Of a DNA stretch of 64,000 nucleotides, positions 2,565-64,000 are shown in pieces. Position numbers and translations under genes: made by a program. The stretch comes from an uncultured Candidatus Saccharibacteria bacterium (GTDB lineage: Bacteria > Patescibacteriota > Minisyncoccia > Phycocordibacterales > CAYSCM01), in assembly GCA_964429815.1 (NCBI GenBank), contig CAYSCM010000001.1, positions 32,001 to 96,000 on the forward strand, in the 5' to 3' direction. A model generated the notes under the pieces. That model did no database searches, was not told the DNA's origin, and saw only the letters and a list, made by a program, of their open reading frames with translations. Within the stretch, counting starts at the first letter, position 1; each line of letters begins with the position of its first letter.

Positions 2565-4307
2565 ATGACTCTCGAGCTCAGGGACTTTGTCCCGAAGAAG
2601 GCCCTCGGGCTCCATCCCGCCGACGTTGTCGCTGGGATTCCCTGGGGAGGACTCTCCGGTATGCGGGTGTGTTTCATCAACATGCCACTGCGGGAGTCCG
2701 CGAAGCCAAATACCCCGCCGCAAGGTCCCGGCCTTATGGCGGCCCGTCTTATGCAGTATGGCGCTGACGTCTCGATTATCGACCTCAACGGCTACCGTAT
2801 CGATGACGAAGAAGCGCACAAGCGCGGACTCGTCAATGGCCGACACGTCTCCCACAATGAGGCGCGTCAGCTCATCGAGGCGACTTTCCACAAGTTCGGC
2901 GAACCGCACGTGATTGGCCTTTCGGGGAAAATCACGACGTTGCGCTGGCAGGAGTGGACCGCCAAGACGTGTCGTTCGCTCGCTCCAGAGGCGTTTCTCA
3001 TCTCCGGCGGTGGGCTCGCGACCGAGTTCAAAGAAGGACTCTTCAGCTGGGTGCCGCAGCTCGACGCGGTCGGCCACTCGGAAGGCGACGACATCATGGT
3101 CGCCTGCGTGAATGACGTTCGCAAGAGCGGAGGCAAGCGCGAGCGCATGACCGACTCGCCCTACTACGTGGGCGAAATCGGCGGACGCCACCGCTTCCTC
3201 TATGCGGGCGATCGACCAAGGGACCTCGATGCGCTACCGTTTGCTGCGCTCGAACTTCTCGAAGAAGACGTCTTTGGCAATCGCATACTCGACGAGTACA
3301 TCGCGACCCCCGTATGGGGACTCGCGGCGAACAACTCGTCGGCGGCACCTTTCGAGATGAGGAAGTCTCTCACGACCGTCTCCTCTCGCGGCTGTCCGTA
3401 TGCCTGCGCGTTCTGCTTCCGTGGAGCGCAAGGCGAGCAAAAGTGGGGGATCCGCTCCCCCGAGAACCTGCGAGCCGAAGCCGAGTGGATGATTCGGAAG
3501 TATGGCGTGGATTTCATCGGGTTTCCCGATGACAACTTTGCCGTAAGCGTCAAGCGCTGCCAATCGCTTCCGGAGGCCTTTGACGGGCTCTCGTTTCGTT
3601 GGGGCACGCATACGCGCCTTGACGAATGCACGCTCGATCGGATCGTGCCCATGGCGAAAGCTGGGTGCATCTATATCGGCGTCGGTGCCGAATCGGCCTC
3701 GAAACACACCCTCTACCGCATGAAAAAGGGCGGACACATCGTCCGCAAGGACGGCGTGGAGCGTCTCACGAAATGGAACGGGTTCGAATTTCCGACAACG
3801 ATGATCGAGGGGATTCGAAATTGCCGAGACGTGGGTATCCACGTGAACGCGACCTGGATCATGGGATACCCAGGGGAAACCTTGGAGGACCTCAAGACCT
3901 CGGTTGCTTTCATTTCCTGGCAACAGGAGCACTACACCAAGGGATTGGTGCCCGGCACGCCGGAGTATCAAAATGCCTCGGCGTCGGTGAATCGACGCAT
4001 GTTCACGGCGACGTGGTATCCGGGGACCACCATGGTGGAAGCCCCCGAAGCCACGAAACCGCGGGAGCTCCTCGGCGAGCACTTCGGGATTCGTTTCGTC
4101 GAGAAAGGAAGCGGGCATGCACACAAGTTCGTCCCCGTTCCCGACGACGCAATGAAAGCCTATGTGCTGGAACTCGATGACGCGACTAAGATCCTCCACG
4201 GATCCGACGGAGCGCCCATCAACTACTCGGACATGCCGGAGGAGGTCTTCCTCGAGGCCCGTAGTCACATCGATTCGGGTCAAACGGAAAAGATCCTGTC
4301 GATGTAA
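2565..4307 (+). CDS. Cobalamin (B12)-binding domain / radical SAM protein (class B radical SAM, probable methyltransferase or related)
   Basis: CPYACAFC is a CxxxCxxC radical SAM cluster motif at about residue 280. The N-terminal approximately 250 aa resemble a B12-binding Rossmann-like region. A strong SD (AGGAGGA) sits at 2554-2560. The protein is 580 aa. Confidence 0.8.
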   Translation: MTLELRDFVPKKALGLHPADVVAGIPWGGLSGMRVCFINMPLRESAKPNTPPQGPGLMAARLMQYGADVSIIDLNGYRIDDEEAHKRGLVNGRHVSHNEARQLIEATFHKFGEPHVIGLSGKITTLRWQEWTAKTCRSLAPEAFLISGGGLATEFKEGLFSWVPQLDAVGHSEGDDIMVACVNDVRKSGGKRERMTDSPYYVGEIGGRHRFLYAGDRPRDLDALPFAALELLEEDVFGNRILDEYIATPVWGLAANNSSAAPFEMRKSLTTVSSRGCPYACAFCFRGAQGEQKWGIRSPENLRAEAEWMIRKYGVDFIGFPDDNFAVSVKRCQSLPEAFDGLSFRWGTHTRLDECTLDRIVPMAKAGCIYIGVGAESASKHTLYRMKKGGHIVRKDGVERLTKWNGFEFPTTMIEGIRNCRDVGIHVNATWIMGYPGETLEDLKTSVAFISWQQEHYTKGLVPGTPEYQNASASVNRRMFTATWYPGTTMVEAPEATKPRELLGEHFGIRFVEKGSGHAHKFVPVPDDAMKAYVLELDDATKILHGSDGAPINYSDMPEEVFLEARSHIDSGQTEKILSM

Positions 4308-24774: not shown

Positions 24775-25362
24775 ATGCCGAAGTTCTTTCCTGCCCGCCC
24801 CGACCCGGAGCCGCCGGTCTTTTTCGAAGGCGGCGATGGCGTCCGCAAGGGATGGAGCCGGCCGTTCCTTGATGACGCTGAATACCTCACTGCCCTCAAC
24901 AAGCTCCTGATCGTCTGTTCGGACGTCTTATGGGTGAGGCCGGAATCGCAAGAGCTCTGGCTCACCTGGCGCAAGGTGCACAGCACGAAAGGCCCGTGGA
25001 TGTTCGGCGGGCGTCAGCTGCGCGGGGAAACGCCGCGCGAAGCGGCCGTGAGGAAACTCTCACGGGAGGTCGGTACCGACGTCGGGCCGGATGAACTCTC
25101 GTACCTGGCGACGCTCGTGTGGCTCTCCGAATTTCGTCAACAAGAACCCCAGGGCGCCGGCTGCCATTTCATCCTGTTCCACTACTGCTGGCAGCCACAG
25201 GACGAGCTGGTCGCTTCGAAGCAGGCAAAGCTCGACCCGGCCGAGTACGATCTCGAGCACGGCATCAAAGCCTACGGCTTGGCCGACATCGAAGCGCTCG
25301 ACGGGAAACTCTGGCCGCAACGCCAGCTTCTCATCGATCACTGGCGTCGCTGCTTCGGCTAG
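24775..25362 (+). CDS. Nudix hydrolase, GDP-mannose mannosyl hydrolase-like (Gmm/WcaH/NudD-like)
   Basis: GGRQLRGETPREAAVRKLSREVG is a degenerate Nudix box that closely parallels the E. coli Gmm box GGRVQKDETLEAAFERLTMAELG. The ORF has a good SD and is GC-rich. The ORF track starts earlier, at 24721. Confidence 0.6.
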   Translation: MPKFFPARPDPEPPVFFEGGDGVRKGWSRPFLDDAEYLTALNKLLIVCSDVLWVRPESQELWLTWRKVHSTKGPWMFGGRQLRGETPREAAVRKLSREVGTDVGPDELSYLATLVWLSEFRQQEPQGAGCHFILFHYCWQPQDELVASKQAKLDPAEYDLEHGIKAYGLADIEALDGKLWPQRQLLIDHWRRCFG

Positions 25363-25482: not shown

Positions 25483-25977
25483 ATGAGCGTGGATAGACTA
25501 CTAATCTCCAAAGAAACAAAAACCCATGAATGGTATCTTCAAAAAAAAGCCCGCGCCGCAGGCGAAACGGGCTATGATCTCTTCTTCAGCAGACTGCAGC
25601 CGTCGGACTTCAGTTTTGTCCTAGAGAAAGAGGCGGGCCGAGTCCTAATTGTAGGGACGAATTCTCAAATTCGCAATTTTTTTGCGGACCAAGAAAAAAT
25701 CCTTCGCGAGGTCTGCACAAGACGTGCCATAGCAAATCCGACGTTCATGGCCGCTGCCTCAACCAACTGGTTCTGGCAAAAATTCTTCAACTATGGAAAT
25801 TTTTTGGACAACCATCCCGAGGGAGCGACCCTTCCCGCGTTGGTTATTGCCTCGGGCGACATCCGCCACTACGACGACTGGGGTCGCGGCACCACTATCG
25901 ACAAGATCGATACGTGGCTCTCTGGCCATTGCGAGCGCTTCGGTGTACCGATTGAGTACATCAAAAGCGCCAATTAA
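25483..25977 (+). CDS. Hypothetical protein (164 aa), no recognisable family
   Basis: The ORF has a strong SD, its own promoter and its own terminator. I found no motif I could assign. Confidence 0.55.
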   Translation: MSVDRLLISKETKTHEWYLQKKARAAGETGYDLFFSRLQPSDFSFVLEKEAGRVLIVGTNSQIRNFFADQEKILREVCTRRAIANPTFMAAASTNWFWQKFFNYGNFLDNHPEGATLPALVIASGDIRHYDDWGRGTTIDKIDTWLSGHCERFGVPIEYIKSAN

Positions 25978-44619: not shown

Positions 44620-45942
44620 CTACTGTGCCGCTGTCGTCGAAGCCGCTGGTTCACGCGCCAACACCGTGCGCAAGCTCGTGTACTTGTTCGCGGCATCCCA
44701 GATGAGGTACGAGTTCAGGCCGGAGTCGAGGTTTGCTTGTATCTGCTCCTTCACCATGTCAGGCGTGTAGGTGACGGGGTAGTCAAACGATTGGAGCCAG
44801 GGGCGAATGATGGAAGCGGGATAGGCCGGCTTTGAGTACAGACCGCTCGCCAATTCCCTGGTCGTCGTGGGAGTCGTCGTCCCCGCCACTTCCACGGTTT
44901 TCATGATGGGCGTGTAGGCCATCGAAAAGAGCTCGGTGGTGGTCGCCATCGCCCGTGCGACTGCCGAGTCGAGAGAGACTCTAACCACCTTGTACGGGTC
45001 CGAGTTGACGTTTTTAAGTCCAACAAAGCCGCTGTTGTAGTGGGAAGGGTAGACCATTGGGTCTATGAAGTCGAAGTAGGGCATCGCGCGCTCGAGAACC
45101 TGTCCGATACCGAGGTCGTCGACGTGGACCGTCACATAGCCGAAGAGATCGGCGGACATAACGGCGCCGATCTGCTTTACGTGAGCGTGCAAATATTGGA
45201 AAAACTCCTCGAGCGCCTGCGCCTTGGTCTTCCCCTCGTCGAGCATATAAACCGCATCCGCCATAGGACCATCCGAGGGGAAGCGAATGTAATCGAAGTT
45301 AAGCTCGTCGAAGCCCATCTCCTCGTACGAGACTTTGCTCAGTTCGACGATGTAGTCCCAAAACGGTTTCGCGCCGACGTCGACAAACGAGAGTCCTCCA
45401 TAGTTTTTCCAAATCCCTCCCTTTTTGCTTTGCACCGCGAGATCGGGATGCTCCTTCGTGTAGGTGGGGTCTTGGAAGACAGTAATGCGGCCGATGACGT
45501 AAATGCCCTTGTCGTGCAGGTTTTTAACGAACGACTTCATGTCGGCCGCACCGCACGCTTTCGAGACATTATCCCGGAGGAGTGAGCTATCGGTCGGAAA
45601 GGCGATGCCGCCGGAGTAGTCCTTTATGTCAATGACGATTGCGTTGAGTTCGGTCCTGTCGATGAGCCCCAGAAGGTCTTTGCGGAACGAGGGCGTACCC
45701 GCCGCGCACTGGCTCATGTAGATGGCCTTCACGGGGTCCGGGGTCGGCACATGGGTGATCGAGGGGTGTTGCACGATGGTGGTCGTGGCCGCCGAGGTCG
45801 AGCTGGCGAGCGTGGCATTGTGATAAGACGTTTCAATAGCGGCCGGAATGCCGAAAAAGGCCGCCGCGGCCACGCCGGAGAGAAGAAGCCCAAGATAGGC
45901 TCCCCGGATAAGCCCCAAGGGCTGTTTTTTAGGAGCGCGCAT
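44620..45942 (-). CDS. Membrane-anchored putative glycoside hydrolase-like TIM-barrel protein (GHL10/DUF4015-like)
   Basis: There is an N-terminal transmembrane segment (LGLLLSGVAAAAFFGI). NAIVIDIKDYSGGIAFP resembles the IDVKD..G hallmark of the hypothetical glycoside-hydrolase-like family. The start is taken at MRAPKK (45942); the ORF track extends to 45975. Confidence 0.45.
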   Translation of the reverse strand: MRAPKKQPLGLIRGAYLGLLLSGVAAAAFFGIPAAIETSYHNATLASSTSAATTTIVQHPSITHVPTPDPVKAIYMSQCAAGTPSFRKDLLGLIDRTELNAIVIDIKDYSGGIAFPTDSSLLRDNVSKACGAADMKSFVKNLHDKGIYVIGRITVFQDPTYTKEHPDLAVQSKKGGIWKNYGGLSFVDVGAKPFWDYIVELSKVSYEEMGFDELNFDYIRFPSDGPMADAVYMLDEGKTKAQALEEFFQYLHAHVKQIGAVMSADLFGYVTVHVDDLGIGQVLERAMPYFDFIDPMVYPSHYNSGFVGLKNVNSDPYKVVRVSLDSAVARAMATTTELFSMAYTPIMKTVEVAGTTTPTTTRELASGLYSKPAYPASIIRPWLQSFDYPVTYTPDMVKEQIQANLDSGLNSYLIWDAANKYTSLRTVLAREPAASTTAAQ

Positions 45943-46129
45943 CGACGCCAGGGCGTTCACGCATCGCGCTGTCACGACTGCGTCCCTCCTGCCGCAAGGC
46001 GAACGCGAGGGCGGCTACCAGTAATCCGAAGAGCACGTAGAGCGGGGTCTTCCAGGGGGTCGGAACGCCCACGAACGGCAAGAGAGCGACGAGGAGAGCG
46101 AACAGAATGATGGTGGCATGTTTGGACAT
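45929..46129 (-). CDS. Small hypothetical two-TM membrane protein (about 66 aa)
   Basis: MSKHATIILFALLVALLPFVGV...LYVLFGLLVAALAFAL has two hydrophobic helices. It overlaps the downstream gene start by 14 nt. The call is weak. Confidence 0.3.
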   Translation of the reverse strand: MSKHATIILFALLVALLPFVGVPTPWKTPLYVLFGLLVAALAFALRQEGRSRDSAMRERPGVDARS

Positions 46130-47006: not shown

Positions 47007-47231
47007 ATGCCGAGAAAAAAGCTCGAGGACATGCTTAATGCCACTGCGGAAGATTGGGCGAAGATCCCCCCCGATCCGGATGGACGCCGTATGGTATCCG
47101 TATCCGGCCCTCTCGAGGGGGATCTTCTCAGCGCCGCTCATGCCGCGCTTCATCACGGCGTCGGTCTCAAAGCCAGGACGAAAGAGGCAAAACTCTCTAT
47201 GCATGAGAACGTGTCCGAGCAGGACAAATAA
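47007..47231 (+). CDS. Small hypothetical protein (74 aa)
   Basis: AAAAAGGAG sits 6 nt upstream of the ATG. A strong terminator follows at 47246-47278. There is no recognisable domain. Confidence 0.4.
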   Translation: MPRKKLEDMLNATAEDWAKIPPDPDGRRMVSVSGPLEGDLLSAAHAALHHGVGLKARTKEAKLSMHENVSEQDK

Positions 47232-47245
47232 CGCCTGCGCCCCAG

Positions 47246-47278
47246 GACGCCCGCCACAAACGGGCGTCTATTTTTTTG
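47246..47278 (+). terminator. Rho-independent terminator
   Basis: The stem gacgcccgcc-acaaac-gggcgtc is followed by tattttttt. Confidence 0.55.
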
Positions 47279-47810
47279 GAAAAATCGCCATACGGCGCCA
47301 GTCCAGAAAGAATGCCGGGAGAGGAACAAAATAGTTTTTGAGAGCATCCTTCTCCGAACCGGCGGGGTCGTGATAGAAAAAACCTGCGATTTCCCCGCCC
47401 TCACCCTCTCGAACCCCCACTAAAAGTACCTGATGGAATTTACGTTGATCCCAGAGGCGTAGTTGTGTCGAAATTATAACAGGATTCCCTATCTTAATGG
47501 CATTGCGAATCTGTGTGATATCGCGCTCGGACATCTGCTCTTTTCGCTCACATCCAAAACCAAATCTTTGTATAAGCGAGACCGAATAGTCATGTATCCA
47601 CCCCGAATCGCCGTAGCCTCCTTCCCTCATACCCCGTGCAATGAGTTCATCGAGACTCGGCAATTTTGCACCAAAGTACGCAAGCGCCATGTATACACAG
47701 GTCATCCCGCAGGAAAAAATACGTGAGTCAGGATTTTTGACGTCACGATACTGGGAATAGTAGGGAACTTCGAGAATCGTATCCGTGAAGGTTATCTGTC
47801 GGGTCATCAT
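47268..47810 (-). CDS. Peptidase C39-like (papain-fold cysteine peptidase) domain protein
   Basis: VPYYSQYRD...SCGMTCVYMALAYFG is the C39-like catalytic Cys context. A downstream His lies in IHDYS. Confidence 0.6.
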   Translation of the reverse strand: MMTRQITFTDTILEVPYYSQYRDVKNPDSRIFSCGMTCVYMALAYFGAKLPSLDELIARGMREGGYGDSGWIHDYSVSLIQRFGFGCERKEQMSERDITQIRNAIKIGNPVIISTQLRLWDQRKFHQVLLVGVREGEGGEIAGFFYHDPAGSEKDALKNYFVPLPAFFLDWRRMAIFPKK

Positions 47811-47817
47811 GGTTGTA

Positions 47818-48282
47818 TTACGAAGTTAGAAATGGGTGGATATAAATAGCTGCCACCTTACGAACAGGATTACCCTCCGCCTGTGCCGCGTAATGTAGAG
47901 GATGTTCAATCGGGATGCGATATTCGAAACGGCTGCTGACGGCGGTCTTTTCGTTGAGCACAAAACCGTTGTGCTCATGCATTTCCTCATCTCTCTGTTT
48001 TATTTTTTCCCAAAGAACGACAGCTCCAGGGACTGGTTTATCCGTTGTGGTCCATCCTGATGCTTCCATATCCCGTGTCGTGCCCGAGACTGTGGCATGA
48101 ACTTCCTTAAGCAACTTGAAGTGGTACAGGATTGAAGAAACAAAATAAGCGCAAGAAACATCACCGTCGCGCAAGATGTCCTCCTTCTTGCCATCCACCT
48201 CCGCATAAAGAGTGCGAAAAAGGTTCGAACCGACCGAGTTGCGGATCATCGCGAGGTAGGTGTCCTTCAATAAAAATTTCAT
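47818..48282 (-). CDS. Hypothetical protein with possible Cys/His papain-like or NlpC-like active-site arrangement
   Basis: DGDVSCAYFVSSIL and HEHNGFVL suggest a Cys-His dyad. It lies adjacent to the C39-like gene. The assignment is tentative. Confidence 0.35.
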   Translation of the reverse strand: MKFLLKDTYLAMIRNSVGSNLFRTLYAEVDGKKEDILRDGDVSCAYFVSSILYHFKLLKEVHATVSGTTRDMEASGWTTTDKPVPGAVVLWEKIKQRDEEMHEHNGFVLNEKTAVSSRFEYRIPIEHPLHYAAQAEGNPVRKVAAIYIHPFLTS

Positions 48283-48310
48283 TTCCCGATACTACTTTAT
48301 TTTACTGAGG

Positions 48311-48392
48311 TGGGCGAGGGGAGAGTTGAACTCCCAATCCTTGCGGAATACGCTTCTGAGGCGTACGTGTATACCAATTCCACCACTCGCCC
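48311..48392 (-). tRNA. tRNA-Leu (anticodon CAG), type II with long variable arm
   Basis: The reverse complement folds as a cloverleaf. The acceptor stem is GGGCGAG/CTCGCCC. The anticodon stem TACGC/GCGTA carries the loop CTCAGAA. The variable arm is TTCCGCAAGGAT, the T-arm is GGGAG-TTCAACT-CTCCC, and the discriminator is A. Confidence 0.8.
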
Positions 48393-48544
48393 GTCTGTTC
48401 CATCCTACTCAAATATGAAAACGGGTCTAGCCGACATCAGACCGCGTGGGTCTCATTTAAAGGCGCCATCAATCCGATTTAAGCCTTCGACACACTGTTC
48501 TGTCAGCCGACTGGCGAGGGGCGGAAAAGCTGTACCGTCCTGTG

Positions 48545-48616
48545 TGCGAGTGGAAGGAATCGAACCTTCGACCTCTGTCTTATCAGGACAGCGTTCTACC
48601 ACTGAACTACACTCGC
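48545..48616 (-). tRNA. tRNA-Ile (anticodon GAT)
   Basis: The reverse complement reads GCGAGTGTAGTTCAGTGGTAGAACGCTGTCCTGATAAGACAGAGGTCGAAGGTTCGATTCCTTCCACTCGCA. It has a perfect 7-bp acceptor stem, the anticodon loop CTGATAA and the T-loop GGTTCGATTCC. Confidence 0.85.
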
Positions 48617-48925
48617 AATGAGGTGGATACTAGCAAGAGAGCGCCTCCCTATCAACAGCTCCCCCTTCATGCGGGGTGCGTTTGGTCGGTACAATGATGG
48701 TGGTTCCAGTAGAAAGGAGAGAACCTTTGTGCGGTTGGTCACGACGTACACTCAAACGGGATCGCGGTCGTAGCCGAGAAATTCGGTCAAAGCCCATCCA
48801 GGAGGAGCTTTCCCTGCTCACCCCGAATGTCTCACGTGTCCTTCCCGAAGCCACAGTCGCTCCACCGGCGAGTCGCTCCGCGCGGCTCCCCTCACAGCAG
48901 CGACTCGCTGAGCTCTATGCCGCAA

Positions 48926-48990
48926 GGAGGTGATCCAGTCGCGTAAGAGCCCTACCAAGGCGCTTACGACTACCGTTTTCGAACGTTCTT
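48926..48990 (-). rRNA. Orphan 16S rRNA 3'-terminal fragment (helix-45-like hairpin plus canonical GGATCACCTCCTT anti-SD tail), not contiguous with the 16S body
   Basis: Plus-strand AAGGAGGTGATCCAGTCGCG at 48926-48945 matches the universal 1525R region with 1 mismatch. Upstream, rRNA-sense CGUAAG...CUUACG forms a 6-bp stem, and AGUCGUAA resembles the 1492-1500 region. It lies about 310 nt upstream of tRNA-Ile, the classic position of a 16S 3' end. Confidence 0.5.
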
Positions 48991-48998
48991 TCTTTCAA

Positions 48999-49057
48999 GC
49001 GCGCCGCGTTAGCGGCGCGCTTTCTATTCAAAAAAAGACCCGCTCTCAGAGCGGGTC
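48999..49057. terminator. Back-to-back hairpin terminator module (plus-strand hairpin gcgcgccgc-gtta-gcggcgcgc + T-run; minus-strand hairpin gacccgctct-c-agagcgggtc + T-run)
   Basis: The plus-strand hairpin at 48999-49020 is followed by tttctattcaaaaaaa. The minus-strand hairpin at 49037-49057 is followed by TTTTTTT (49030-49036). The module sits directly after the stop at 49070 of the membrane-protein operon. Confidence 0.6.
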
Positions 49058-49069
49058 AGGTACGGGGGG

Positions 49070-49477
49070 TTATGCATCGTCGCGGTGACATAGCCGCAGG
49101 AGCGCACTAACGATGAGGACAGCTCCGAGGACGACCGGGGTGAACGCGGCGTTGAGTTCCCTATGGATGCCTAACCGGAGACCAATGAAGGTGACGACGA
49201 GGCCACCGAAGAACAGGATCGCGCTTTTCTCCACGTACGGGCTCCAGATTCGACAGAGGATGCCGCGCCATCCTCCCGTCATGAGAGCGGAAGCTACCAC
49301 CCCCAAGCTGTAGGAGGGAAAAGAATCCGTTTCCCGAACGAGGGCGTGGACGAAAAGCATGAGCCCGAGGAGAAAGACAAACGTGCCGAGTCCGATGATA
49401 AGCCGAGCCACGATGGACTCGCGAAGAACGCGAGGACGACTCCAATCGTGAAAAAGCTTGGTGGAGCGTTGAGACAT
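49070..49477 (-). CDS. Small integral membrane protein (about 135 aa, 4 predicted TM helices)
   Basis: AAGGAGG lies 9 nt upstream of the ATG at 49477 (MSQRSTKLF...). Hydrophobic helices include LIIGLGTFVFLLGLMLFV, LGVVASALMTGG, AILFFGGLVVTFIGL and PVVLGAVLIVSALL. It is the last gene of a 4-gene operon and is followed by a terminator. The ORF track extends to 49510. Confidence 0.5.
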   Translation of the reverse strand: MSQRSTKLFHDWSRPRVLRESIVARLIIGLGTFVFLLGLMLFVHALVRETDSFPSYSLGVVASALMTGGWRGILCRIWSPYVEKSAILFFGGLVVTFIGLRLGIHRELNAAFTPVVLGAVLIVSALLRLCHRDDA

Positions 49478-49561
49478 GGATGGACCCTCCTTCTTTCGTC
49501 GTGATACCACTCTTCCTGAGCCGCCGCAACCTGTGGAAAACCGTTACGCAAGAAGGCCGCC

Positions 49562-49771
49562 CTACGGGCGGCCTTGCGGCTTTTTCTCGGCGCGACAGAT
49601 AAAGACGCACAGTATCATAAGCGCGATCGCGATGATGATAAAGAGCGTCCCCGCCGGCAGCGCATGAACAGGTTTTCCGCGTTGGATGATGCCGCCGATG
49701 AGCGCGGCAAAGCCGGCACCGGCAAGAACGAGCGCGAAGAAAGCCGTTGTGAGATTCGCTGCCTTTTTCAT
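49562..49771 (-). CDS. Small membrane protein (69 aa, 2 TM)
   Basis: GAGG lies 7 nt upstream. FFALVLAGAGFAALIGGII and LFIIIAIALMILCVFI are the two transmembrane segments. Its start overlaps the stop of the upstream tiny ORF (ATGA). Confidence 0.45.
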   Translation of the reverse strand: MKKAANLTTAFFALVLAGAGFAALIGGIIQRGKPVHALPAGTLFIIIAIALMILCVFICRAEKKPQGRP

Positions 49772-49773
49772 GG

Positions 49774-49893
49774 GAGCCTCACGAGCGGTCCGTGGAAGTA
49801 GAGAAACACGTCGAGCGCCAAACTGAAAAAGAACAGGCTTAGCAGGATACGTTTCTTCCCGCTTGGGCCCGAGAACGCCTTGATGGGATGCAT
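49774..49893 (-). CDS. Tiny hydrophobic ORF (39 aa)
   Basis: Its translation is MHPIKAFSGPSGKKRILLSLFFFSLALDVFLYFHGPLVRLP. GGGAGGG lies 6 nt upstream. It is translationally coupled to the next gene and is not in the ORF track because it is under 60 aa. The call is speculative. Confidence 0.3.
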
Positions 49894-49996
49894 GCTAGCC
49901 CTCCCTGGTACCTTGGCACATCCTAGCTAAAGAGGCATGCCGGCGCAATCTAAGAAGAGCGCCGCCGGTGGTGCCGGCGGCGTCGTGTCCCCACGA

Positions 49997-50251
49997 TCAA
50001 GGGAAGGTTCGGTCGATGAACGAGCCGAAGTAGCCGACGCCGAAGCCGAGTCCGAGGTACTGGAGCGGTCGGAGCGGTGCCTCGAGCATGTTGACGGCAG
50101 CGTAGGCGCCGAGCATCCAGGCTATACCTACCGTGAGCGCCCCGGCGGCCACGCCGGTCGCAACGTCACGGTACCAAGAGGCCTGAGCGTCCCACATGTG
50201 GTCGAGGCGCTCGAGTCCAGTGCGATAGTTCCGTAGGGTTCCGTCGGGCAT
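49997..50251 (-). CDS. Small membrane protein (84 aa)
   Basis: AAGGAGG lies 7 nt upstream of the ATG at 50251. A candidate promoter on the minus strand at about 50262-50296 reads TTGTGT-17nt-TAGAAC. The hydrophobic segments are VAAGALTVGIAWMLGAYAAV and LGLGFGVGYFGSFI. Confidence 0.5.
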   Translation of the reverse strand: MPDGTLRNYRTGLERLDHMWDAQASWYRDVATGVAAGALTVGIAWMLGAYAAVNMLEAPLRPLQYLGLGFGVGYFGSFIDRTFP

Positions 50252-50325
50252 AGGAACCTCCTTTCCTTTCCCGTCCCTGTTCTACCGAAGTTTTGCGCTC
50301 TACACAATGGCTTCCTCCCCATGCG

Positions 50326-50356
50326 CAAAAAAGCCCCTTATAAGGGGCTTTTTTGC
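50326..50356. terminator. Perfectly palindromic bidirectional intrinsic terminator (AAAAAAGCCCCTTA-TAAGGGGCTTTTTT)
   Basis: The stem GCCCCTTA/TAAGGGGC is flanked by an A6 run on one side and a T6 run on the other, so it is a terminator on either strand. It lies about 150-180 nt downstream of the contiguous 16S 3' end. Confidence 0.6.
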
Positions 50357-50504
50357 GTTGGTACCAGAGTCTCTTTTGTTCCGTTCAATATACCAGTACG
50401 CATTTCTGGAAAGCGAGCAGACTTTAAAGACATACTGCTATGGTCTACTTCCGTACTCGATCGAGATACAGAATATCGACCGGATAAGTCTTACCTTCCG
50501 AAGA

Positions 50505-51980
<1,476 letters not shown>

Positions 51981-52230
51981 AATTCGTTGAACGGAACAAA
52001 AGAGAGGCTGGTACCTCCTTCTTGATTCCTTTTACCCGTCCGAGCCGCAAAGCGGTTAGGATTAGGGTTTTTTGATCAGACTACACCGCCCTGGTTGGCG
52101 GCTAATCTAGTTGAACAGATTTTGTCTGCTCGCACATAACGTTCTTTGATTATCAATGATCACTACCTCATTGGCCGTTCGCCTCAAGCGGATTAGGCCG
52201 AAACAAAAACCTGCCCAAGGCAGTGCAGAC

Positions 52231-60914: not shown

Positions 60915-61020
60915 AACCTGGCGGCTACCTACTCTCCCCTTGCGAGTACCATCGGCGCTAGCGGGCTTAACGGCCGTGTTCGGAATGAGAACGGGTGTTT
61001 CCCCGCCGCCAAACCACCAG
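60915..61020 (-). rRNA. rrf: 5S ribosomal RNA
   Basis: The reverse complement reads CTGGTGGTTTGGCGGCGGGGAAACACCCGTTCTCATTCCGAACACGGCCGTTAAGCCCGCTAGCGCCGATGGTACTCGCAAGGGGAGAGTAGGTAGCCGCCAGGTT. It has the canonical CCGAAC and GCGCCGATGGTA blocks and the 3' AGTAGG..GCCAGG. Confidence 0.8.
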
Positions 61021-61075
61021 ATTATAAATTCCAACTATTTTCGATCTCTAAGTGTGACATTTTGGACGGATTCTC

Positions 61076-61120
61076 GGAATGAGAACGGGTGTTTCCCCGC
61101 CGCCAAACCACCAGATTATG
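61076..61120 (-). repeat. Duplicate of the 5' about 38 nt of 5S rRNA plus 7 nt of its leader
   Basis: It is 45 nt identical to 60971-61015 (cggaatgagaacgggtgtttccccgccgccaaaccaccagattat). Confidence 0.5.
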
Positions 61121-61464
61121 AGATTCAAAAAGTCGGGTTCGGCAGCCGACTTCCTCGATAGGATGAGGAAGATCGGCTGCCGCCCGCGCAAGGACGTGAG
61201 CAGTTGAGCGGGGCGCTCCTCCCGAGCGGCCACCATTCCCATCGCAGTGCTAAAGCGCTTCTTAGAATGGTCGCGGAGGGCGACACCATTCCAGCTCCGC
61301 AAAGGGTCCGTGCACGCTTCTTTCCCACGTCCGAAAAGCGAAAACAAAGAACTTAACGTTTCGAAGCGTCCGAAATCCGGGTAGATTTCGGCCACCAGTA
61401 AAACGTCAAGCGGGTTAAAAAAGTAACGAAAATCATATTCAATCAATTGCGACATGCAGATTCC

Positions 61465-64000
<2,536 letters not shown>

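What the first reader, a model, noticed from the sequence alone, without database searches (positions are those of the whole stretch)
49070..50296. Four-gene operon of tiny membrane proteins (84, 39, 69 and about 135 aa) embedded between the 16S body and its displaced 3' end, with its own promoter, strong SD sites and insulating terminators
Every ORF carries a near-consensus Shine-Dalgarno site (AAGGAGG, GGGAGGG, GAGG, AAGGAGG). Two of them are translationally coupled via ATGA. The operon is bracketed by palindromic bidirectional terminators, so it looks like a real, insulated transcription unit rather than ORF noise inside an rRNA spacer.

None of the four proteins matches a family I can name. 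The largest has 4 TM helices and looks HdeD/DUF308-like at best. Small multi-TM protein modules in mobile cargo are often holin-like, immunity or toxin-resistance functions, or subunits of a small transporter. The location, as the cargo of a putative 16S-targeting insertion, makes it worth a look.
Basis: seen in the sequence. Interest (0 to 1): 0.6.

Follow-up and report, generated by a model that had tools for sequence, protein, structure and literature searches.

The report
Orphan membrane genes beside intact 16S
Four tiny membrane-protein genes of unknown function lie in the spacer between a complete 16S rRNA gene and a tRNA gene of a Parcubacteria-type bacterium whose ribosome has lost its usual mRNA-docking tail; the nearby '16S 3' end' is a stray look-alike fragment, so the rRNA gene is not split.

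Summary
The ORFs are there as described: 84, 41 (not 39), 69 and 135 aa, with SD-like motifs 5-8 nt upstream, one ATGA overlap and flanking hairpin terminators. ORF1, ORF3 and ORF4 have host-like codon statistics; ORF2 is weaker. The framing is wrong. The 16S gene (50519-51980, minus strand) is complete. It has an intact h45 with a GGAA loop and a GGAUUAAUUCCAAUCGGAA tail that lacks the anti-SD. At least 118 Parcubacteria species share that tail, and none has an anti-SD downstream. A -46 kcal/mol leader-trailer stem and a perfect 34-nt palindromic terminator close the 16S unit before the cassette. The cassette lies in the long, variable 16S-tRNA-Ile spacer typical of this lineage. The 'displaced 3' end' (48924-48974) matches a canonical 16S end exactly over 14 nt but lacks the h45 GGAA loop. 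It is unique to this organism and looks like a stray pseudo-fragment. The four proteins have no homologue, family or fold match. One oddity remains. About 94% of genes in this lineage lack SD, yet all four cassette ORFs have one. SD-led small membrane ORFs also recur directly after the 16S gene in relatives. I do not know what reads those motifs.

The parts
50519..51980 (-). Complete 16S rRNA gene. h45 (ACGGGUAGC-GGAA-GCUGCUCGU) is at 50533-50554. The anti-SD-less tail GGAUUAAUUCCAAUCGGAA is at 50514-50532.
   Evidence: Rfam SSU_rRNA_bacteria, 1376.8 bits, model positions 1-1533. The tail is shared by at least 118 species. Coordinates.
50360..50388 (-). 3' trailer strand of the 16S processing stem. 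It pairs with the 5' leader at 51987-52015.
   Evidence: RNAduplex gives -46.0 kcal/mol, against -20.4 +/- 4.1 for shuffles. The CGGAACAAAAGAGA motif is conserved in relatives' trailers.
50324..50357 (.). Perfect 34-nt palindromic bidirectional intrinsic terminator. It ends the 16S unit.
   Evidence: Inverted repeat I3, 17+17 nt, 100% complementary. Also found by the terminator scan. Relatives have a terminator at the same place.
49997..50251 (-). ORF1, 84 aa. It has a soluble N-terminus followed by two hydrophobic segments; the second is glycine-rich (GLGFGVGYFGSF). The SD AAGGAGGT is at 50256-50263.
   Evidence: Coding LLR is 0.211, the best of six frames. No homologue.
49960..49982 (-). GC-rich hairpin (9 bp) between ORF1 and ORF2. 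Its U-tail is weak.
   Evidence: Terminator scan.
49768..49893 (-). ORF2, 41 aa, one hydrophobic segment. The SD GGGAGGG is at 49899-49905. This is the weakest coding call of the four.
   Evidence: LLR is 0.063, the best of six frames but low. The sliding-window score is negative here.
49562..49771 (-). ORF3, 69 aa, two hydrophobic segments. Its start overlaps the ORF2 stop (ATGA), and GAGG lies 5 nt upstream.
   Evidence: LLR 0.190. There is only a sub-threshold DUF202 match (E 0.0016, below the cut-off). No homologue.
49070..49477 (-). ORF4, 135 aa, four predicted TM helices. The SD AAGGAGGG is at 49485-49492.
   Evidence: LLR 0.159. The AF2 model is helical with pLDDT 66. There is no homologue in 5.8 bn or 1.84 bn proteins and no PDB fold match.
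49030..49057 (-). Strong intrinsic terminator after ORF4 (9-bp stem plus U7).
   Evidence: coordinates.
48997..49022 (.). Perfect GC hairpin (AAGCGCGCCGC-TAAC-GCGGCGCGCTT). It has a T-run only on the + strand.
48924..48974 (-). Pseudo 16S 3' end: GGTAGTCGTAA, then a 26-nt divergent middle, then TGGATCACCTCCTT. It is the same length (within 1 nt) as the last 49 nt of a canonical 16S. It has no GGAA loop and no 16S body in front of it.
   Evidence: The exact 14-mer occurs once in the window. Alignment to the E. coli end (recalled from memory) is. There is no SSU or intron hit here at E<=1. Folding energy is no better than shuffles. The element is absent from 238 related loci.
48656..48923 (-). 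GC-rich non-coding stretch between the pseudo-fragment and the tRNA-Ile promoter.
   Evidence: No coding signal in any frame. The fold of the wider stretch 48617-49069, which contains this part, has z = -2.8. No similarity to relatives.
48544..48616 (-). tRNA-Ile(GAU), native to the lineage. Its TTGATA-17-TAGTAT promoter is at 48627-48655. tRNA-Leu(CAG) follows at 48309-48392.
   Evidence: It is 92-93% identical to the tRNA-Ile of L102 and L038 and 100% identical to that of L189.

Best explanation
The organism is a Parcubacteria (Paceibacteria)-type CPR bacterium. Its single-piece 16S rRNA ends in the lineage-typical tail that lacks the anti-Shine-Dalgarno sequence. The 16S transcription unit is closed by a leader-trailer processing stem and an intrinsic terminator at 50324-50357.

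The finding lies downstream of that, in the long and highly variable 16S-tRNA-Ile spacer. In this lineage that spacer often holds promoter-proximal, leadered genes for tiny membrane proteins. Here it holds up to three short units: ORF1; ORF2-ORF3, coupled through ATGA; and ORF4. Each has a purine-rich, SD-like leader and ends at a GC hairpin. Together they encode four orphan integral membrane proteins with 2, 1, 2 and 4 hydrophobic helices. I infer that these are accessory envelope proteins made from ordinary leadered mRNAs, possibly boosted by read-through from the strong 16S promoter.

The 51-nt '16S 3' end' at 48924-48974 is not part of the functional rRNA. Most likely it is a stray, non-functional fragment of a canonical anti-SD-bearing 16S end that arrived with foreign DNA.

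Shown: the 16S gene is intact; the tail is lineage-wide; the coding statistics are host-like; there are no homologues. Inferred: membrane insertion, promoters, the origin of the fragment, and any function.
For: The 16S gene is complete and closed:
- Rfam aligns it to model positions 1-1533.
- The h45 GGAA loop is contiguous with the gene body.
- The GGATTAAT... tail occurs in at least 118 species genomes, with a covarying mini-hairpin and no downstream CACCTCCTT.
- The literature reports that the anti-SD motif was detected in only about half of Parcubacteria 16S genes (PMC9297842).
- The leader-trailer duplex is -46 kcal/mol against -20.4 +/- 4.1 for shuffles, and a terminator follows directly.

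The genome is SD-poor:
- 41 of 45 long genes in the window have no SD.
- In relatives the figure is 4-6% with an SD, and there is a leaderless -10 signature.

The spacer is lineage-typical:
- tRNA-Ile(GAU) follows the 16S gene on the same strand in 53 of 114 loci, at 300-2900 nt.
- L196 shows an 'empty' spacer of about 215 nt.
- SD+ATG+ORF density is 0.222/kb after the 16S gene, against 0.047/kb on the opposite strand.
- First ORFs start at +227 to +323 nt, behind a terminator and a promoter, in 9 species. ORF1 here starts at +272.

The ORFs look like genes:
- The annotated frame is the best of six for all four. LLR is 0.16-0.21 for ORF1, ORF3 and ORF4.
- Leucine codons favour CTC, as in the host.

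The fragment looks stray:
- It lacks the GGAA loop and has no 16S body in front of it.
- Its folding energy is not exceptional.
- The sequence downstream of it does not pair with the 16S leader.
- It is unique among 238 related loci.
- The segment's GC content (59.2%) is at the 99.7th percentile of 1.7-kb windows.
- SD-led genes in the window have higher GC3.
- The tRNA-Ile is native.
Against: - Codon usage of the cassette is host-like. That fits long residence better than recent import. If the SDs were useless relics, four of them should not all have survived.
- A small TM + Cys-motif family in the same spacer of 7 relatives keeps SD-like motifs at only 18-30% protein identity. This suggests the motif is selected in hosts that lack the anti-SD, and my explanation gives no mechanism for that.
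- The fragment's 14/14 identity next to a strongly diverged middle is uneven for neutral decay.
- No donor was found. There are no flanking repeats and no mobility genes.
- No close relative exists: the best 16S identity is 85.7%, and even housekeeping proteins are singleton clusters. Absence of homologues therefore says little.
- Promoters and expression are untested.
Confidence: 0.6

Rival explanations
1. A mobile cassette inserted into the 3' end of the 16S gene. The true, anti-SD-bearing 3' end was displaced to 48924-48974 and is rejoined by splicing, or the element brought a replacement end in the way tRNA-targeting islands do.
For: - There is an exact 14-nt TGGATCACCTCCTT, plus AGTCGTAA at the right spacing.
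- tRNA-Ile follows about 305 nt later, as in a classical 16S-ITS-tRNA-Ile layout.
- CPR 16S genes are known to carry insertions (PMC9297842).
- The four ORFs use SDs.
Against: - The contiguous end has a perfect h45 with a GGAA loop, and its tail is shared by at least 118 species with no downstream anti-SD.
- A leader-trailer stem and a terminator close the gene before the cassette.
- Three to four further terminator hairpins lie in between.
- There is no group I or group II intron hit at E<=1.
- There is no integrase and there are no att-like repeats.
- The genome is SD-poor.
- The fragment's h45 equivalent lacks the universal GGAA loop.
Confidence: 0.03
2. The cassette is native, and its SD-like leaders are functional in this host despite the missing anti-SD. 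The canonical anti-SD hairpin-tail element next to it is a functional RNA. It could be an anti-SD regulator that masks the leaders of the adjacent genes, or a partner of whatever factor reads the motif.
For: - Codon usage is host-like.
- SD-led small membrane ORFs are enriched and positionally clustered after the 16S gene in relatives.
- SD is retained in a family that has diverged to 18-30% identity.
- The fragment's tail is perfectly conserved beside a diverged middle.
- sRNAs with C-rich anti-SD motifs are a known regulatory class (own knowledge).
Against: - The element is found in no other of 238 related loci (1.5 Mb).
- It has no promoter or terminator of its own.
- Its folding energy equals that of shuffles.
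- Its complementarity to the four 5' UTRs is no better than to shuffled UTRs.
- A strong terminator separates it from the ORFs.
Confidence: 0.12
3. The 1.7-kb segment was misplaced by assembly. Under this reading it comes from another, SD-using organism and was joined at the conserved tRNA-Ile and at the palindromic terminator.
For: - Both ends of the independent Logan contig fall exactly at such repeat-like sequences: inside tRNA-Ile and at the 34-nt palindrome.
- The same tRNA-Ile sequence occurs in other organisms (L189, 100% identity).
- GC content is at the 99.7th percentile and the ORFs are SD-rich.
Against: - Codon usage matches the host.
- The other organism would need the same 34-nt terminator.
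- The same join is present in a 501,704-bp NCBI contig, and the segment recurs identically in three Logan contigs.
- The layout (terminator, then an SD-led small ORF at about +270) matches relatives.
Confidence: 0.04
4. The ORFs are not genes. On this reading the region is non-coding spacer whose GC-rich sequence happens to stay open, and the purine motifs serve some RNA-level role.
For: - There is no homologue and no family, so no dN/dS test is possible.
- ORF2 has a weak coding score.
- GC-rich DNA favours long open frames (the control shows this bias).
Against: - The annotated frame is the best of six for all four ORFs, and three reach host-gene scores that only 6% of small ORFs attain.
- SD-like motifs sit 5-8 nt from each ATG.
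- There is an ATGA overlap.
- Hydrophobic helices have TM length.
- Hairpins lie exactly after the stop codons.
Confidence: 0.06

Closest known systems
Parcubacteria 16S rRNA that lacks the anti-SD (Tsurumaki et al. 2022, PMC9297842; anti-SD loss in reduced genomes, Nikolaeva et al. 2020, PMC7782861)
   Same: - The 16S tail lacks CCUCC and the genome is SD-poor.
- The 5S rRNA is short (106 nt) and the rRNA genes are unlinked.
- The tail is identical in type to at least 118 species found here.
   Different: Those papers do not describe, in the passages I read, any of the following seen here:
- the covarying mini-hairpin in the tail;
- SD-led small genes directly after the 16S gene;
- a stray canonical anti-SD fragment.
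CPR 16S/23S rRNA gene insertions (Brown et al. 2015, as cited in PMC9297842)
   Same: It is the same group of organisms, with extra DNA and ORFs associated with an rRNA gene.
   Different: Those insertions interrupt the rRNA sequence and are removed from the transcript. Many encode homing endonucleases. Here the rRNA model is matched contiguously and the extra DNA lies after the gene's own terminator.
Genomic islands integrated at the 3' end of tRNA/tmRNA genes, with a displaced partial 3' end (own knowledge)
   Same: There is a partial copy of the 3' end of a stable-RNA gene at the far side of a block of accessory genes.
   Different: - There is no integrase and there are no direct repeats.
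- The 'displaced' copy differs fundamentally from the resident end: it has the anti-SD and the resident end does not.
- The resident end is the ancestral type for the whole lineage.
sRNAs carrying C-rich anti-SD motifs, such as CcsR, RsaE/RoxS and RNAIII (own knowledge; a CcsR1 sub-threshold Rfam hit elsewhere in the region)
   Same: There is a CCUCC-containing stretch next to genes that have complementary leaders.
   Different: - It has no promoter or terminator of its own and is not conserved.
- The motif is a verbatim 16S tail rather than a loop motif.
- There is no extended complementarity to the leaders.
Small hydrophobic bacterial proteins: type I toxins, holins, and the HdeD/DUF308, DUF202 and glycine-zipper families
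   Same: The size range is 41-135 aa, with 1-4 TM helices and a glycine-rich helix in ORF1.
   Different: - No family is matched at its threshold in Pfam, NCBIfam, PHROGs or PDB folds.
- There is no phage context and no recognisable antisense RNA.

Membership tests
rRNA-gene insertion / intervening sequence (CPR type) | The insertion interrupts the rRNA sequence, so the rRNA model is matched in two or more separated pieces. | tested here: not met
   One contiguous match, model positions 1-1533, at 50519-51980. There is no SSU hit at 48900-48980 at E<=1.
rRNA-gene insertion / intervening sequence (CPR type) | The rRNA segment downstream of the insertion is needed to complete a conserved structure, here h45 and the tail. 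| tested here: not met
   h45 with its GGAA loop and the lineage-typical tail are contiguous with the gene body.
rRNA-gene insertion / intervening sequence (CPR type) | A self-splicing intron RNA or a homing endonuclease ORF is present. | tested here: not met
   There is no group I or group II hit at E<=1. The four ORFs have no Pfam domain.
rRNA-gene insertion / intervening sequence (CPR type) | The insertion is removed from the mature rRNA. | not testable with these tools
   No transcript data are available.
Integrative element targeting the 3' end of a stable-RNA gene | An integrase or recombinase gene lies within the element. | tested here: not met
   Only four ORFs of 41-135 aa, with no domains.
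Integrative element targeting the 3' end of a stable-RNA gene | Direct repeats (attL/attR) flank the element, and the displaced end is near-identical to the resident end. | tested here: not met
   There is no flanking direct repeat of 11 nt or more. The resident and displaced ends share only AGTCGTAA and TGGAT.
Parcubacteria 16S lacking the anti-SD | No CCUCC(U) follows h45 at the 3' end. | tested here: met
   The tail is GGAUUAAUUCCAAUCGGAA. The same tail type occurs in at least 118 species.
Parcubacteria 16S lacking the anti-SD | SD motifs are scarce genome-wide. | tested here: met
   41 of 45 long genes have none. About 6% of genes in the window, and 4-6% in relatives, have a motif of 5 nt or more.
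   There is no DUF308 hit even at E<=1. The best hit is DUF4118 at E 0.023, below its cut-off.
Holin / phage membrane proteins | A match to a phage protein family, or a phage gene context. | tested here: not met
   The best PHROG E-values are 0.0013-0.0019, to families of unknown function. There is no match in phage genomes or IMG/VR.
Type I toxin-antitoxin | A small hydrophobic toxin with an overlapping or adjacent antisense sRNA that has its own promoter and terminator. | tested here: inconclusive
   ORF2 (41 aa, 1 TM) has the right size. No antisense promoter was found. Hairpins with + strand T-runs exist at 49553-49575 and 49005-49019. There are no expression data.
Anti-SD sRNA regulators | An independently transcribed RNA whose C-rich motif pairs with target leaders, conserved among relatives. 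| tested here: not met
   There is no promoter or terminator. The element is not conserved. Duplex energies are no better than with shuffled UTRs.

The most novel reading that the evidence does not exclude
In Parcubacteria whose 16S rRNA has lost the anti-SD, canonical SD-like leaders are nevertheless kept by selection on a special class of leadered genes. These are mostly tiny membrane proteins placed directly after the 16S gene. That would mean something other than the 16S tail reads GGAGG. In this organism, a separately encoded hairpin plus GGAUCACCUCCUU element next to four such genes could be part of that system, either as regulator or as partner.
Probability: 0.1. Interest if true: 0.85.

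Novelty: new member of a known kind. Interest (0 to 1): 0.4.

Why it matters
As posed, the finding claimed genes inside a split 16S rRNA. That would have been remarkable, and it is not the case.

What remains is a set of orphan small membrane-protein genes in a variable rRNA-tRNA spacer of an uncultured CPR bacterium. That is ordinary by itself.

The by-product matters more. In a lineage whose ribosomes lack the anti-SD, and where about 94% of genes lack SD, SD-like leaders persist at the canonical distance on a minority of genes. They are concentrated directly downstream of the 16S gene. If these motifs are functional, they point to an SD reader that does not involve the 16S tail. If they are foreign signatures, the 16S-tRNA-Ile spacer is a hotspot for imported DNA. 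RNA-seq or Ribo-seq, or whole-genome scans, could test either reading.

Tried and rejected
Homology and family searches:
- ORF4, ORF1 and ORF3 against 5.8 bn proteins returned only themselves.
- A full HMMER scan of 1.84 bn representatives with ORF4 found only low-complexity hits in giant proteins.
- Pfam, PHROGs and NCBIfam gave nothing at threshold.
- Phage genomes, plasmids and IMG/VR gave no match.
- tblastn of the four proteins against 119 genome loci and 119 metagenome loci gave nothing.

Structure:
- The AF2 single-sequence model of ORF4 has pLDDT 66, and Foldseek against PDB gave E > 0.5.
- The ORF1 model is one long helix and is uninformative.
- The afdb50 library was unavailable.

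Close relatives:
- None exists. The best 16S identity is 85.7% in genomes and 84.5% in metagenomes, and even RsmI and SecF are singleton clusters.
- Conservation, synteny and dN/dS of the cassette therefore could not be tested.

Ideas considered and dropped:
- An alternative SD complementary to the altered tail. The TAATC enrichment turned out to be the TATAAT -10 box of leaderless genes.
- A conserved CCUCC elsewhere in the 16S gene. None was found.
- A CUCCUU in the window's trailer acting as a displaced anti-SD. It is the stem of a UUCG hairpin at a position that is variable in relatives.
- A second h45-like stretch at 48796-48823. The similarity is not significant: 29 of 300 shuffles scored as high.
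- CACCTCCT 309 nt upstream of tRNA-Ile in L153 and L198. The sequence is unrelated.
- Higher GC3 of SD-led ORFs in relatives as evidence of horizontal transfer. It is mostly an open-frame artefact when compared with length-matched controls.
- Double-glycine leader peptides for the neighbouring C39-like peptidase. By eye there is no match.
Full report
OBSERVATION

On the minus strand the order is as follows:
- 16S rRNA, 51980..50519
- a 34-nt perfect palindromic terminator, 50357..50324
- ORF1, 50251..49997 (84 aa)
- ORF2, 49893..49768 (41 aa, not 39)
- ORF3, 49771..49562 (69 aa; ATGA overlap with ORF2)
- ORF4, 49477..49070 (135 aa)
- a strong terminator, 49057..49030
- a GC hairpin, 49022..48997
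- a 16S-3'-end-like stretch, 48974..48924
- about 300 nt of GC-rich non-coding DNA
- tRNA-Ile(GAU), 48616..48544
- tRNA-Leu(CAG), 48392..48309

Each ORF has a purine motif 5-8 nt before its ATG: AAGGAGGT, GGGAGGG, GAGG and AAGGAGGG. Additional GC hairpins lie between ORF1 and ORF2 and at the end of ORF3. The 'operon' may therefore be three short units. The scan found no consensus promoter. By eye I see only weak TTGCGC/TTGCGG-17-TAnnAn candidates. An independent Logan contig from SRR12313479 is 100% identical to 48583-50355.

ARE THE ORFs GENES?

I built a codon model from 37 long genes of the window. With it, the annotated frame is the best of six for all four ORFs.
- ORF1, ORF3 and ORF4 score 0.211, 0.190 and 0.159 LLR per codon. 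Host genes score 0.168 +/- 0.048. Only 6% of all 40-150-aa ORFs reach 0.15.
- ORF2 scores 0.063, and a sliding-window scan is negative there.
- Synonymous usage follows the host. For example, 30 of 48 Leu codons are CTC.
- The region 48620-49040 has no coding signal.

I accept ORF1, ORF3 and ORF4 as probable genes and ORF2 as possible. Hydrophobic segments suggest 2, 1, 2 and 4 TM helices.

THE 16S GENE IS NOT SPLIT

Rfam matches model positions 1-1533 contiguously. It reports no intron family and no SSU fragment at 48900-48980, even at E<=1.

The contiguous 3' end reads AAGTCGTAACAAGG-C-ACGGGTAGC-GGAA-GCTGCTCGT-GGATTAATTCCAATCGGAA. That is a perfect h45 with the universal GGAA loop, followed by a tail without CCUCC.

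- 118 are real 16S ends from Parcubacteria/Paceibacteria MAGs, including Kaiser-, Nomura-, Zambryski-, Jorgensen-, Lipton- and Harrisonbacteria.
- Their tails are GGATTAATTCCAATTGGA or GGATTAATTCAATTTGAA. These form a covarying mini-hairpin.
- None has CACCTCCTT downstream.

This agrees with the report that the anti-SD motif was detected in only about half of Parcubacteria 16S genes (PMC9297842). Anti-SD loss is also recurrent in reduced genomes (PMC7782861).

The 16S leader (51987-52015) pairs with the trailer (50360-50388) at -46.0 kcal/mol, against -20.4 +/- 4.1 for shuffled trailers. The terminator follows immediately. Relatives have the same trailer motifs and a terminator at the same place.

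The genome is SD-poor.
- 41 of 45 long genes in the window have no SD-like motif.
- In 390-530 long genes of the relatives, only 4-6% have a motif of 5 nt or more at the canonical distance.
- In those relatives, ATAAT peaks with its 3' end at -9 to -7, which is the signature of leaderless mRNAs.

WHERE THE CASSETTE SITS

tRNA-Ile(GAU) follows the 16S gene on the same strand in 53 of 114 related loci, at distances of 300 to 2900 nt. The window's tRNA-Ile is 92-93% identical to those of L102 and L038, so it is native. The nearest 16S relative among the metagenome loci (L196, 84.5% identity) has 16S, then about 215 nt, then tRNA-Ile, with nothing in between. That is an 'empty' state. The cassette is therefore cargo of the variable 16S-tRNA-Ile spacer. 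It is not cargo of the 16S gene.

THE 16S-LIKE FRAGMENT

The stretch 48974..48924 reads GGTAGTCGTAA-GCGCCTTGGTAGGGCTCTTACGCGAC-TGGATCACCTCCTT.
- The exact 14-mer occurs once in the window.
- The piece is within 1 nt of the length of the last 49 nt of a canonical 16S. AGTCGTAA and the tail are identical to it. The 26-nt middle is diverged and lacks the GGAA loop (the E. coli sequence was recalled from memory).
- It is preceded by ORF4 and two hairpins, not by rRNA.
- Its folding energy equals that of shuffles.
- The sequence after it does not pair with the 16S leader.
- Its complementarity to the four 5' UTRs is no better than to shuffled UTRs.
- No similar element exists in 1.5 Mb of 238 related loci.
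- There are no flanking direct repeats.

I read it as a stray pseudo-fragment of a canonical 16S end. Its origin is unresolved.

HOMOLOGY AND FUNCTION

None of ORF1, ORF3 or ORF4 has a homologue other than itself in 5.8 bn proteins. ORF4 has none in a full HMMER scan of 1.84 bn representatives. Pfam, PHROGs, NCBIfam, phage, plasmid and IMG/VR searches are negative. AF2 models are helical but not informative, and Foldseek against PDB finds nothing.

The organism is phylogenetically isolated. Its best 16S identity is 85.7%, and its RsmI and SecF are singleton clusters at 90% identity. Orphan status for fast-evolving small membrane proteins is therefore unsurprising.

I commit to this reading: they are accessory integral membrane proteins expressed from leadered mRNAs. 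Their function is unknown.

THE REAL ODDITY

All four ORFs carry SD-like motifs in a lineage that lacks the anti-SD. In the relatives, three patterns stand out.
- The density of AGGAG/GGAGG/AGGAGG + 4-9 nt + ATG + ORF of 30 aa or more is 0.222/kb in the 2 kb after the 16S gene on the same strand. It is 0.047/kb on the opposite strand, and 0.098 and 0.044/kb elsewhere.
- In nine species the first such ORF starts 227-323 nt after the tail, behind a terminator and a TTGACA-17-TATAAT promoter. ORF1 of the window starts at +272. Most of these ORFs encode 30-100-aa TM proteins without Pfam matches.
- A TM + G.C..V..(P)C family occupies the spacer in seven species. Members share 18-30% identity, and six of seven have a strong SD. 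This hints at selection on the motif.

No conserved CCUCC exists anywhere in 36 near-complete 16S genes.

Some evidence points the other way, towards foreign origin.
- The 1.7-kb segment has 59.2% GC, the 99.7th percentile of windows.
- SD-led genes of the window, including radical SAM, NUDIX and DUF4015 genes, have higher GC3 (0.705 against 0.605, p = 0.002).

A similar GC3 excess in relatives mostly disappears against length-matched small ORFs without SD. I cannot decide between 'imported with donor signals' and 'native with a functional motif'. Both readings are compatible with the main verdict.

VERDICT

The headline interpretation is wrong.

The feature is a new instance of an ordinary kind of thing: orphan small-protein genes in a variable spacer. 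One intriguing, unresolved aspect is attached to it, namely the SD-like leaders and the canonical anti-SD scrap in a bacterium that lacks the anti-SD.

Noticed in passing
window 50514-50532; loci L002-L120: The anti-SD-less 16S tail forms a small hairpin that covaries across at least 118 species. Variants include UUCCAAUUGGA, UUCAAUUUGAA, UUCAAUGUGAA, UUCCAACUGGAA and UUCCAAUCGGAA. This suggests a structured replacement for the anti-SD tail.
   Followed up: partly
loci L002-L120, first 2 kb after the 16S tail: SD-led small ORFs, mostly 30-100-aa TM proteins, are 2-5 times denser directly after the 16S gene on the same strand. First-ORF starts cluster at +227 to +323 nt, behind a terminator and a consensus sigma-70 promoter.
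   Followed up: partly
L077 +800, L103 +801, L080 +883, L106 +921, L093 +1291, L033 +1376, L011 +2279 (nt after the 16S tail): A small protein family (N-terminal TM helix, then G.C..V....(P)C) recurs in the 16S-downstream spacer of seven species. Members share 18-30% identity. Six of seven have a strong SD-like motif. None has a Pfam match.
   Followed up: partly
window-wide; 119 genome loci: The -10-like hexamer ATAAT peaks with its 3' end 7-9 nt before start codons, so many genes in this lineage appear to be leaderless. AGGAG/GGAGG still shows a sharp peak at -10 to -6 in about 6% of genes.
   Followed up: partly
window 2565-4307 (+), 24775-25362 (+), 44620-45975 (-), 25483-25977 (+), 47007-47231 (+): The few SD-led genes outside the cassette are accessory: radical SAM, NUDIX, a DUF4015 glycosyl hydrolase and two hypotheticals. 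Three of them are among the highest GC3 values in the window, and four are on the minority strand.
   Followed up: partly
L171, L204, L210, L234, L237, L170, L196: In the clade sharing this tRNA-Ile type, 16S tails show graded anti-SD decay: GGATCATCTCCTT, GGATCATTTCATT, GGATCATTTAATT, GGATCATTTTTTTT, GGATTATTTCAAGG, GGAGTTTAATT and GGAATTCTTCC.
   Followed up: partly
window 60916-64000 and 50519-51980: The rRNA genes are unlinked. 23S and a short (106-nt) 5S lie about 9 kb upstream of the 16S gene on the same strand, with protein genes, including SecD/SecF-like ones, in between.
   Followed up: no
window 52013-52020: AAGGAGGT occurs in the 16S leader immediately 5' of the processing stem. Overall, AGGAGG is over-represented in the window (55 against 30 expected) and AAGGAGGT likewise (7 against 1.7), mostly inside genes. 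This would fit relaxed selection against internal SD-like sites when the anti-SD is absent.
   Followed up: no
window 48796-48823: A second stretch, GGGTGAGCAGGGAAAGCTCCTCCTGGAT, resembles the native h45 3' half plus GGAT. The similarity is not significant against shuffles.
   Followed up: partly
window 50276-50303 and 49810-49837: There is a 28-nt, 75%-complementary inverted repeat between the ORF1 5' UTR and the ORF2 coding region. It may be chance.
   Followed up: no
window 47268-47810 and 47818-48282: A Peptidase_C39-like protein and a 154-aa protein without a family lie just downstream of the two tRNAs, in a stretch of lower GC (47.5%).
   Followed up: no
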